Shown here piece by piece: positions 21,765 through 22,149 of a DNA stretch of 64,000 nt. How positions within the stretch are numbered: position 1 is the first letter of the stretch; every line of letters begins with the position of its first letter. The translations under genes and the position numbers were made by a program. The notes below the pieces were generated by a model. The model searched no databases. It was not told the DNA's origin and saw only the letters and a list, made by a program, of their open reading frames with translations. This DNA comes from Chlamydiales bacterium (GTDB lineage: Bacteria > Chlamydiota > Chlamydiia > Chlamydiales > SM23-39), in the NCBI GenBank assembly GCA_030681135.1, contig JAUXXF010000025.1, forward strand, positions 12,156-76,155, given 5' to 3'.

Positions 21765-21790
21765 TTCTTTATTCTTGAAGGCTTCTCTTC

Positions 21791-22144
21791 TTGGGGCTTC
21801 GCCCCAAACCCCACTAAAGGACTTCGTCCTTTAGAATCCTATTTGTTTTCTTGATTCTTTTATACACTCTTCCCCTAGCGGGAAAGGGTGTATAAAAGAA
21901 TCACTTAAATATGGCGTTGCATAATTAAGAAATTTTTACCACAGAGATAGTCCATCTTGAAAGGCGGGGTCTCTCCGCCTTTCAAGATGGACTATCTCTG
22001 TGGCAATTAAGTAAAGTTGAATTATGCAACAACACCCTTAAATATTACTAGAGGCTCTCGACGAAGGAGAGAGCCTCTAGATAGAAAATAAAAAAGGATT
22101 CTAAAGGACGAAGTCCTTTAGTGGGGTTTGGGGCGAAGCCCCAA
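21791..22144. repeat. nested palindrome complex bounded by inverted copies of a 50-nt double-hairpin module (family B)
   Basis: Outer arms 21791-21840 and 22095-22144 are reverse complements. Inner hairpins: 21853-21867/21888-21902; a perfect 29-bp stem 21939-21967/21975-22003; a 12-bp stem 22048-22059/22069-22080. Confidence 0.8.
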
Positions 22145-22149
22145 TTACA

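What the first reader, a model, noticed from the sequence alone, without database searches (positions are those of the whole stretch)
21781..22146. 365-bp hierarchical nest of palindromes directly downstream of tRNA-Arg
The whole spacer between tRNA-Arg(CCT) and the permease gene is built from inverted repeats within inverted repeats. Two 50-nt outer arms each contain two hairpins of their own. They enclose a 15-bp-stem hairpin, an imperfect ~22-bp pair, a perfect 29-bp stem with a 7-nt loop, and a 12-bp stem. No ORF fits. Such density of perfect stems is far beyond what termination needs. Possibilities include a composite of inserted palindromic elements, a structured RNA, a recombination or integration hotspot next to a tRNA, or a replication/segregation-related site.
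Basis: seen in the sequence. Interest (0 to 1): 0.6.

Follow-up and report, generated by a model that had tools for sequence, protein, structure and literature searches.

The report
Nested palindromic repeats between convergent genes
The 354-bp nest of palindromes is real, but it is a pile-up of small repeats: two facing copies of a terminator-like double hairpin that marks gene ends in a clade of environmental chlamydiae, with fast-changing hairpin DNA lodged between them, not an RNA gene, an integration site or a replication site.

Summary
Positions 21791-22144 fill the gap between tRNA-Arg(CCT) and a convergent amino-acid permease gene.

The two outer arms are copies of a dispersed module of about 60 nt: a GC-rich hairpin that covaries, ACCCCR, the conserved hairpin CTAAAGGAC-NNN-GTCCTTTAG, AATCC, then a T-tract. 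I found 68 copies in the window and in relatives, all Chlamydiae MAGs or metagenome contigs. About a third start within 20 nt of a same-strand stop codon. More than half sit in tail-to-tail pairs around a variable centre.

Relatives whose permease is 86% identical keep both arms at this locus but have only one short hairpin between them. A close relative has the same interior, with a deleted left arm and rewritten palindrome centres. More distant relatives lack the module.

The interior is therefore lineage-specific. It includes a 124-bp palindrome flanked by a 9-bp direct repeat. I found no other copy of any interior piece.

Best reading: back-to-back terminator-like repeats, resembling REP dimers or pneumococcal SPRITE, with secondary palindromic insertions. 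This is a new member of a known kind, and the tRNA adjacency is incidental. Termination and mobility are inferred, not shown.

The parts
21650..21677 (+). Promoter-like site (TTGAAC-16-TATACT) upstream of tRNA-Arg. Weak consensus match only.
21692..21764 (+). tRNA-Arg (anticodon CCT).
   Evidence: ARAGORN; Rfam RF00005, 63.5 bits
21791..21849 (+). Left arm, one copy of the dispersed terminator-like module read 5'->3' on the + strand, 26 nt after the tRNA. Hairpin 1 is 21791-21807, spacer ACCCCA 21808-21813, hairpin 2 21814-21834, AATCC 21835-21839 and T-tract 21840-21849.
   Evidence: (model R1, 88.8 bits)
21852..21903 (.). Central hairpin H_a (24-nt arms, loop TAGC). It aligns in part with the single central hairpin of the 86% relatives. 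In the close relative it shows compensated changes and a truncated 3' arm.
21904..21912 (+). Left copy of the 9-bp direct repeat CTTAAATAT, a candidate target-site duplication.
21913..22036 (.). 124-bp palindromic element. Terminal inverted repeats are GGCGTTGCATAATT (21913-21926) and AATTATGCAACAACACC (22020-22036). They enclose the 32-nt-arm stem 21936-22006 (29 bp perfect, 7-nt loop). The element is absent from the 86% relatives. It is present in the close relative, where the stem centre is rewritten.
22037..22045 (+). Right copy of the 9-bp direct repeat CTTAAATAT.
22048..22080 (.). Hairpin H_c (12-bp stem, 9-nt loop). Present in the close relative (1 change) and absent from the 86% relatives.
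22086..22144 (-). Right arm, the same module read 5'->3' on the - strand. It starts 5 nt after the permease stop codon. Hairpin 1 is 22128-22144, hairpin 2 22101-22121, AATCC (GGATT on +) 22096-22100 and the T-tract (A-tract on +) 22086-22095.
   Evidence: (88.3 bits)
22150..23595 (-). Amino-acid permease gene (APC family), convergent with the tRNA.
25488..25550 (-). Third, solo copy of the module. It starts 5 nt after the stop codon of the aconitase gene (25556-28375, - strand).
   Evidence: (85.3 bits)

Best explanation
The nest is a cluster of small palindromic repeats sitting in the gap between two convergent transcription units.

Its outer arms are two copies, tail to tail, of a lineage-specific dispersed module of about 60 nt: covarying GC hairpin, ACCCCR, conserved hairpin CTAAAGGAC-NNN-GTCCTTTAG, AATCC, T-tract. 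Read on the strand of the upstream gene, each arm gives two consecutive stem-loops followed by a U-rich tract. The left arm most likely ends and stabilises the tRNA-Arg transcript, and the right arm does the same for the permease mRNA. This is inferred, not shown.

The family behaves like REP dimers or pneumococcal SPRITE elements. It occurs as singletons and as tail-to-tail dimers. It is gained or lost between species. It is kept under constraint where it sits at gene ends.

The 236 bp between the arms are secondary, lineage-specific material in a presumably untranscribed pocket:
- a central hairpin (H_a) inherited from the simpler ancestral dimer;
- a 124-bp palindromic insertion bounded by a 9-bp direct repeat;
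- a further 33-bp hairpin (H_c).

The perfect stems are probably maintained and reshaped at the DNA level, by arm-to-arm templated correction or template switching in quasi-palindromes, rather than by selection on an RNA.
For: SHOWN: the module is a dispersed family.
- An exact-pattern scan of one genome per species found it in four Chlamydiae MAGs.
- It also occurs in JGI/ENA metagenome contigs.
- A covariance model built on 37 copies finds 68 copies in 319 kb.

SHOWN: the hairpins are kept.
- 97.1% of cells are paired.
- 9 of 16 pairs show changes on both sides.
- No column shuffle reaches the observed covariation score.

SHOWN: the module sits at gene ends.
- At least 21 arms start within 60 nt after the stop codon of a long same-strand ORF, many within 0-17 nt. 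These include the permease and aconitase genes here.
- The three arms are the top terminator-like sites in 20 kb, each in the right orientation.
- The 15 nt after AATCC average 65% T.
- A relative without the module (L044) has an ordinary GC hairpin plus T-run after its permease gene.

SHOWN: there is constraint.
- At this locus the arms are conserved between the window and L038/L057 (permease 86% identical). The left arm matches at about 50 of 54 positions, with a compensated CTAAAGG->CCAAAGG change.
- The surrounding non-coding DNA does not align.

SHOWN: tail-to-tail pairing is the usual state.
- At least 38 of 68 copies are in such pairs, with centres of 13-250 nt whose sequence varies.
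- Several pairs have near-identical arms, as here (identity 0.96-0.98).

SHOWN: whole pairs are gained or lost.
- A complete pair lies in the divergent region upstream of lepA in L038/L057.
- It is absent from the otherwise alignable window sequence.

SHOWN: the interior is lineage-specific.
- L038/L057 have about 45 nt with one 14-bp hairpin between the arms.
- The close relative L056 has H_a, the 124-bp element and H_c. Its left arm has a 25-nt deletion.
- Differences in L056 are concentrated in palindrome centres. The stem centre matches at 28 of 47 positions, against 74 of 76 in the element's flanks and 49 of 50 around H_c. It still folds into a long stem.

SHOWN: nesting by insertion happens in this clade. 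In L004 a palindrome of about 170 nt sits inside an arm, flanked by TA.

INFERRED:
- termination and 3'-end stabilisation;
- that the 9-bp repeat is a target-site duplication;
- DNA-level maintenance of the palindromes.
Against: - No transcription data exist.
- Five nucleotides (AAUCC) separate hairpin 2 from the U-tract, which is not canonical for an intrinsic terminator.
- The terminator scan as a whole is not above chance (22 sites found, 20.5 expected).
- Non-Watson-Crick cells in the sense orientation are 21 A.C against 4 G.U. This gives no RNA-level signature, although many of these cells share descent.
- Some arms lie where no gene ends: the lepA-upstream pair, and partner arms between co-directional genes.
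- The conserved flanks CCCR and AATCC suggest sequence-specific recognition, which a plain terminator would not need.
- No second copy of H_a, the 124-bp element or H_c was found. I looked in about 74 kb of this genome, about 330 kb of relatives, and exact-core scans of the viral and JGI collections.
- A direct repeat of 9 nt or more arises somewhere in 9% of shuffles of the interior. No empty site was recovered.
- No transposase was seen among the 33 proteins scanned.
Confidence: 0.7

Rival explanations
1. The arms are primarily selfish REP/REPIN-like elements. A hairpin-specific single-strand DNA transposase of the RAYT/IS200-IS605 type copies them, and the tail-to-tail dimer is the replicative unit. 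Their position at gene ends reflects tolerated insertion sites, and any termination is a side effect. This overlaps with the best explanation and differs mainly in what maintains the family.
For: - The family has singletons and tail-to-tail dimers, both homodimers and heterodimers.
- Spacers vary, some carry stem-loops, and some pairs have DNA inserted between partners. REP families are described this way in PMC3733652.
- Structure-conserved hairpins are flanked by sequence-conserved single-stranded motifs, CCCR and AATCC.
- A whole pair is present or absent upstream of lepA.
- Pairs occur irrespective of neighbouring gene orientation.
- Mismatches are mostly A.C, with few G.U.
Against: - The module has no GTAG or CGTC terminal tag (sequence).
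- No Y1/HUH transposase appeared among the proteins scanned.
- Density in this genome is low: 3 copies in about 74 kb.
- Dimer centres are not conserved between copies, unlike a unit that replicates as a whole.
- Singletons are biased towards the orientation of the upstream gene and lie close to stop codons.
- Orthologous arms are conserved across species.
Confidence: 0.2
2. The whole region, or its long central stem, is a structured non-coding RNA: an sRNA, a processing signal or an antisense regulator.
For: - The predicted stability is extreme.
- The long stem is kept in the close relative despite many substitutions.
Against: - The interior is absent in the 86% relatives.
- Both strands fold equally well, because the region is a DNA palindrome.
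- No promoter-like site lies inside it.
- It lies beyond terminator-like arms from both directions.
- No Rfam hit comes near a gathering score. The only matches are generic ones to long-hairpin miRNA precursors.
Confidence: 0.03
3. The region is a tRNA-linked integration or recombination site, that is an attB site or the remnant of a genomic island.
For: - It lies next to a tRNA gene.
- Its content varies between relatives.
- A 9-bp direct repeat is present.
Against: - No integrase or island genes flank it, and 6PGD-tRNA-permease synteny is kept in L038, L056 and L057.
- There is no direct repeat of the tRNA 3' end.
- Other module copies are not tRNA-linked.
- The same kind of nest occurs away from tRNAs (L004, L017).
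Confidence: 0.03
4. The region is a replication or segregation site (dif, parS or origin-related), or a purely local stack of terminators unique to this locus.
For: - Palindromes are dense.
- The region lies between convergent genes.
Against: - The arms are multi-copy and dispersed.
- Cumulative GC skew runs smoothly through the site.
- The interior is not conserved.
- The idea that the pieces are unique to this locus is refuted for the arms.
Confidence: 0.02

Closest known systems
[quoted passage not shown] 2011, PMC3049150)
   Same: - Both are small dispersed repeats whose transcript would be a stem followed by a U-rich tract.
- Both are enriched close to the 3' ends of coding sequences and between convergent genes.
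- Both are restricted to a narrow clade.
- Both are found bunched with other small repeats, with elements inserted into one another.
- No transposase is known for either.
   Different: - There is no sequence relationship, and the host phylum differs.
- The module here has two hairpins, one covarying and one sequence-conserved, plus conserved single-stranded flanks.
- It is GC-richer than its genome.
- It is usually arranged as tail-to-tail dimers.
REP elements and their dimers: BIMEs, REPINs, and the GTAG/CGTC-tagged families of Di Nocera et al. 2013 (PMC3733652)
   Same: - Both are extragenic palindromes found as singletons and as head-head or tail-tail dimers.
- Both form homodimers and heterodimers.
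- Spacers of 1-100 bp vary in sequence and may carry their own stem-loops.
- DNA is sometimes inserted between partners.
- Presence varies between related species.
   Different: - The module has no GTAG or CGTC tag.
- It is longer (about 60 nt, two hairpins) and carries an oriented T-tract.
- No RAYT gene was identified.
- Copy density appears lower.
MITEs such as Neisseria Correia elements, RUP and BOX (review PMC10969869)
   Same: - The 124-bp inner element has terminal inverted repeats, a flanking direct repeat and no coding capacity.
- The palindrome inside the L004 arm is flanked by TA, as Correia and IS630-type MITEs are.
- Both cluster in intergenic DNA and nest within one another.
   Different: - No second copy of the 124-bp element was found.
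- No parent IS is known.
- No empty site confirms a target-site duplication.
Inverted DNA-uptake-sequence pairs that form terminators in Neisseria and Haemophilus (from general knowledge)
   Same: A conserved short sequence occurs as an inverted pair that forms a terminator-like hairpin downstream of genes.
   Different: The 9-mer CTAAAGGAC is essentially never found alone: 6 of its 7 occurrences in the window lie inside module hairpins. It does not behave like a dispersed uptake signal.

Membership tests
Intrinsic (Rho-independent) terminator | Stable GC-containing hairpin in the transcript | tested here: met
   Each arm holds two hairpins of 7 and 9 bp. The pairing is kept in 97% of cells across 67 distinct copies.
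Intrinsic (Rho-independent) terminator | U-tract directly after the stem | tested here: inconclusive
   A T-rich tract is nearly universal (65% T over 15 nt). It follows a conserved 5-nt AATCC spacer, so it passes only a lenient scan.
Intrinsic (Rho-independent) terminator | Lies downstream of a transcription unit and in its orientation | tested here: met
   All three window copies meet this. At least 21 of 56 arms examined start within 60 nt after a same-strand stop codon. Exceptions exist, such as the lepA-upstream pair.
Intrinsic (Rho-independent) terminator | Transcripts actually end there | not testable with these tools
   No RNA-seq or Term-seq data are available.
REP / REPIN (RAYT-associated) | Short imperfect palindrome tagged at one end by GTAG or CGTC | tested here: not met
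   The alignment of 37 copies shows no GTAG (or CTAC) tag and no terminal CGTC. CGTC occurs only by chance inside the hairpin-2 loop and stem of some copies.
REP / REPIN (RAYT-associated) | Singletons plus inverted dimers with variable spacers | tested here: met
REP / REPIN (RAYT-associated) | A cognate RAYT (Y1/HUH transposase) gene in the genome, typically flanked by the repeats | not tested
   No whole genome was available. None of the 33 proteins scanned from the window and L013 hit a transposase family.
MITE (for the 124-bp inner element, 21913-22036) | Terminal inverted repeats and no coding capacity | tested here: met
   The terminal inverted repeats are 14 and 17 nt. They are better matched in L056. 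The longest ORF is 26 aa.
MITE (for the 124-bp inner element, 21913-22036) | Target-site duplication confirmed against an empty site | tested here: inconclusive
   The 9-bp repeat CTTAAATAT abuts both ends. A repeat of 9 nt or more occurs somewhere in 9% of shuffles. L056 has lost the left copy, and L038/L057 do not offer a clean empty site.
MITE (for the 124-bp inner element, 21913-22036) | Multiple dispersed copies | tested here: not met
   No other copy was found in the window, in L059, in about 330 kb of related loci, or by exact 21-nt core scans of the viral and JGI collections. Sampling of this genome itself is only about 74 kb.
Any curated RNA family (Rfam 15) | Score at or above the family's gathering threshold | tested here: not met
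   Only the tRNA passes. Sub-threshold hits are generic long-hairpin models.
tRNA-linked integration site (attB / genomic island) | Integrase or island genes next to the tRNA, and a direct repeat of the tRNA 3' end | tested here: not met
   Housekeeping synteny is kept in relatives. No repeat of the tRNA is present.

The most novel reading that the evidence does not exclude
The arms are not just terminators. They would be recognition sites for an unidentified hairpin- or sequence-specific protein, such as a single-strand DNA transposase or recombinase, or an RNA/DNA-binding factor. The tail-to-tail dimer would then act as a landing pad that captures DNA.

What sits between arms in different loci fits this: hairpin elements here and in L004 and L017, a small ORF in L011, a 245-aa ORF in L013, and a DUF4160/DUF2442 gene pair in L057.

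That would amount to a cassette-capturing or insulating platform not yet described in Chlamydiae, with palindromes that correct themselves arm against arm.
Probability: 0.12. Interest if true: 0.7.

Novelty: new member of a known kind. Interest (0 to 1): 0.35.

Why it matters
My four full-text searches found no small dispersed repeat family described for environmental chlamydiae. This module gives those genomes a recognisable gene-end signal that can help annotate 3' ends. It also explains why k=31 (Logan) contigs break at these sites, which is useful for assembling and binning these MAGs.

The locus is a small, clean example of how long perfect palindromes build up and are reshaped in a transcriptionally quiet pocket between convergent genes. 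The changes are concentrated in palindrome centres and are mirrored on both arms.

It does not point to a new class of RNA, a new replication site or a new integration system.

Tried and rejected
- Rfam, at gathering and at permissive thresholds: only the tRNA passes, and the rest are generic hairpin matches.
- ORFs in the spacer: nothing longer than 26 aa, and nothing conserved in L056.
- Search for other copies of the interior:
  - blastn against the window and all fetched loci found none;
  - an exact 21-nt stem core in the viral and JGI metagenome collections found none;
  - blastn of the whole spacer against the plasmid and phage collections found no match.
- DNA-uptake-sequence idea: rejected, because the 9-mer occurs almost only inside the hairpin.
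- Non-chlamydial hits to the 20-nt palindrome (L003, L005, L006, L022, L023, L029, and viral L058): these share only the bare palindrome without the rest of the module, so I treat them as unrelated.
- Transposase or RAYT search by Pfam among window proteins and proteins lying between arms: no hit.
- Using G.U against A.C counts to decide which strand is selected: the result (4 against 21) goes against sense-RNA selection. Many of the cells are inherited together, so I treat it as weak evidence.
- Target-site duplication for the lepA-upstream pair: no clean duplication could be read from the alignment.
- Exact look-up of the 481-aa permease ORF failed because of the start codon chosen. The 480-aa form, P0124, is the same gene.

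Full report
OBSERVATION

The spacer between tRNA-Arg(CCT) (21692-21764, + strand) and a convergent amino-acid permease gene (22150-23595, - strand) is built entirely of inverted repeats:
- outer arms 21791-21849 and 22086-22144, 59 nt each, of which 49 nt are perfect;
- a hairpin at 21852-21903;
- an imperfect pair at 21905-21926 / 22020-22041;
- a stem with 32-nt arms at 21936-22006, 29 bp of it perfect with a 7-nt loop;
- a 12-bp stem at 22048-22080.

Either strand folds at -241.5 kcal/mol, against about -96 for shuffles (z = -26 and -27). No ORF longer than 26 aa fits.

WHERE THE WINDOW COMES FROM

The gene content points to a chromosome of a Chlamydiae bacterium: an ATP/ADP translocase (TLC), HrcA-GrpE-DnaK, RseP, ZnuABC, LepA, 6-phosphogluconate dehydrogenase, aconitase and large PATR autotransporters. 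GC content is about 42%.

Sequences from the same organism occur in Logan assemblies of SRR13727517 (L001, L055, L059). The permease equals a protein of an NCBI "Chlamydiales bacterium" MAG. The Logan contigs break exactly inside the arms, as expected for inverted repeats longer than the assembly k-mer.

THE OUTER ARMS ARE A DISPERSED MODULE

A third, solo copy lies at 25488-25550, 5 nt after the aconitase stop codon. An exact-pattern scan of one genome per species found the module in four Chlamydiae MAGs. The few non-chlamydial hits share only the bare palindrome. A second scan found it in several metagenome contigs.

Aligned copies give this consensus:
TTGGGGC-NNN-GCCCCAA ACCCCR CTAAAGGAC-NNN-GTCCTTTAG AATCC T-rich.

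Hairpin 1 changes sequence with compensation (TTAAGGGC/GCCCTTAA, ATGGGAC/GTCCCAT, CGCGGGGC/GCCCCGCG). Hairpin 2, the CCCR before it and the AATCC after it are conserved in sequence.

A covariance model finds 68 copies in 319 kb. Of all cells, 97.1% are paired, and 9 of 16 pairs show changes on both sides. No shuffle and no slid register comes close. The 9-mer CTAAAGGAC hardly ever occurs outside the hairpin.

WHAT THE MODULE LOOKS LIKE FUNCTIONALLY

- Many arms start 0-17 nt after the stop codon of a long ORF on the same strand, with the T-tract pointing away from it. This holds for the permease and aconitase genes here.
- The left arm follows the tRNA by 26 nt.
- The three arms are the best terminator-like sites in 20 kb, each correctly oriented.
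- More distant relatives (permease 80% identical or less) lack the module in 57 kb. One of them (L044) has an ordinary hairpin plus T-run after its permease gene.
- At this locus the arms are conserved between the window and two relatives whose permease is 86% identical. One change is a compensated CTAAAGG->CCAAAGG. The neighbouring non-coding DNA no longer aligns.

This argues for constraint. I infer that the arms terminate and stabilise the tRNA-Arg and permease transcripts.

Caveats on this inference:
- The AATCC spacer before the T-tract is not canonical.
- The conserved single-stranded flanks suggest sequence-specific recognition.
- In the sense orientation the rare mismatches are A.C (21) rather than G.U (4).

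PAIRS ARE THE RULE, AND THEY BEHAVE LIKE REP DIMERS

At least 38 of the 68 copies sit in tail-to-tail pairs, with T-tracts facing each other and 13-250 nt between them.

- Some pairs have near-identical arms: this window 0.98, L037 0.96, L011 0.96 and one L038 pair 0.96.
- In another clade the partners are consistently of two different subtypes, 0.74-0.81 identical to each other.
- The centre is usually a hairpin whose sequence differs from locus to locus.
- Pairs occur between convergent genes, between co-directional genes (aconitase to permease in L038) and in a divergent promoter region.
- A complete pair upstream of lepA in L038/L057 is absent from the alignable window sequence.
- In L057 two small genes (DUF2442, DUF4160) lie between those arms.

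Singletons, homodimers and heterodimers, variable structured spacers and DNA inserted between partners are all described for REP families (PMC3733652). The terminator-like shape and 3'-end enrichment match pneumococcal SPRITE, which also clusters and nests with other repeats (PMC3049150 and PMC10969869). The module lacks the GTAG or CGTC tag of REPs. No transposase was found.

THE INTERIOR IS YOUNG AND UNSTABLE

Four orthologous spacers can be compared.

- L038 and L057 (86% relatives): about 45 nt between the arms, holding one 14-bp hairpin that aligns in part with H_a.
- L056 (close relative; its spacer flanks are nearly identical to the window's): it carries H_a, the 124-bp element and H_c. 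Its left arm has lost 25 nt, including hairpin 2. H_a has lost its 3' end together with the left direct repeat. The centre of the long stem matches at only 28 of 47 positions, whereas the rest of the element matches at 74 of 76 and the H_c region at 49 of 50. It still folds into a stem of about 25 bp. H_a also shows compensated changes.

Change is therefore concentrated in palindrome centres and mirrored on both arms. I read this as DNA-level revision of quasi-palindromes (template switching, arm-to-arm correction). This is an inference.

The 124-bp element (21913-22036) has terminal inverted repeats and is bounded by the 9-bp direct repeat CTTAAATAT (21904-21912 and 22037-22045). This suggests insertion with a target duplication, with two qualifications:
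- A repeat of 9 nt or more arises somewhere in 9% of shuffles.
- No empty site and no second copy were found.

Nesting by insertion is seen directly elsewhere. In L004 a palindrome of about 170 nt sits inside an arm, flanked by TA. In L038/L057 another long palindrome lies between 6PGD and the tRNA, where the window has none.

REJECTED READINGS

- Structured RNA: the interior is not conserved, both strands fold symmetrically, there is no Rfam support and no internal promoter-like site.
- tRNA-linked integration site: synteny is kept, there is no integrase and no repeat of the tRNA end, and other copies are not next to tRNAs.
- Replication or segregation site: the module is multi-copy, and GC skew shows no turn here.
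- Assembly artefact: independent assemblies agree.

VERDICT

The finding is real and is now explained. It is a cluster of small palindromic repeats, framed by two facing copies of a previously undescribed terminator-like repeat family of a clade of environmental chlamydiae. That makes it a new member of a known kind (REP dimers, SPRITE, MITE clusters), of moderate interest.

The less ordinary possibility remains open at low probability: that the paired arms are recognition sites which capture DNA between them.

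Noticed in passing
window 13354-13522 and 63597-63731; also about 58620-58680 (= L059 5743-5803): A second family of long palindromes has arms of 63-72 nt that are 81-85% complementary. Weakly related copies occur in L033, L027, L002 and L045. A comparable long palindrome sits between 6PGD and tRNA-Arg in L038/L057, where the window has none; I did not test whether it belongs to this family.
   Followed up: partly
window 38990-39167: Another nested palindrome: 51-nt arms (92% complementary) enclose a 29-bp hairpin at 39048-39111. 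Weak relatives occur in L037, L034 and L027. It repeats the hierarchical design of the reported nest with unrelated sequence.
   Followed up: partly
window 25437-25478: A perfect 18-bp hairpin (AAAAGCCCCAGCCAAGGC / GCCTTGGCTGGGGCTTTT) with A- and T-runs on its two sides looks like a classic bidirectional terminator. It lies just beyond the solo arm that follows the aconitase gene.
   Followed up: no
L004 2711-3042: A 324-nt nest in a related MAG. A palindromic element of about 170 nt (TACCGAAAC...GTTTCGGTA) is inserted inside an arm between CCTTTA and GAATCC, with TA on both sides. A further hairpin lies between the arms.
   Followed up: partly
L057 7761-8470 and L038 20738-20889 (upstream of lepA): A complete pair of arms lies in a divergent intergenic region and is absent from the window (16849-16931). 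In L057 two small genes (DUF2442, DUF4160) lie between the arms. The right arm there is interrupted by a run of N, so that assembly is uncertain.
   Followed up: partly
L012, L018, L020, L028, L031 (MAGs DAIDLB01 and JAKBAE01): In this clade the pairs are consistently heterodimers. One arm has hairpin 2 as CTAAAGGAC/GTCCTTTAG followed by AATCC. The other has CCAAAGGGC/GCCCTTTGG followed by AAACCC. They surround GC-rich central hairpins of different sequence but similar size.
   Followed up: partly
L011 135-386 (= L047) and L013 4708-5558 (= L002): Coding-looking DNA lies between paired arms: a small ORF of about 57 aa in L011 and a 245-aa ORF with no Pfam match in L013.
   Followed up: partly
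window 28459-36443: Two adjacent very large ORFs (1298 and 1366 aa). Their orthologues in L038 carry PATR and autotransporter domains. Their GC content (0.47-0.53) is higher than in the rest of the window (about 0.42).
   Followed up: no
L001 end, L055 both ends, L040/L041 ends, L056 start: Logan contigs end inside arms or other palindromes, so these repeats fragment short-k assemblies of this clade. L056 crosses the spacer, probably because its left arm is partly deleted.
   Followed up: yes
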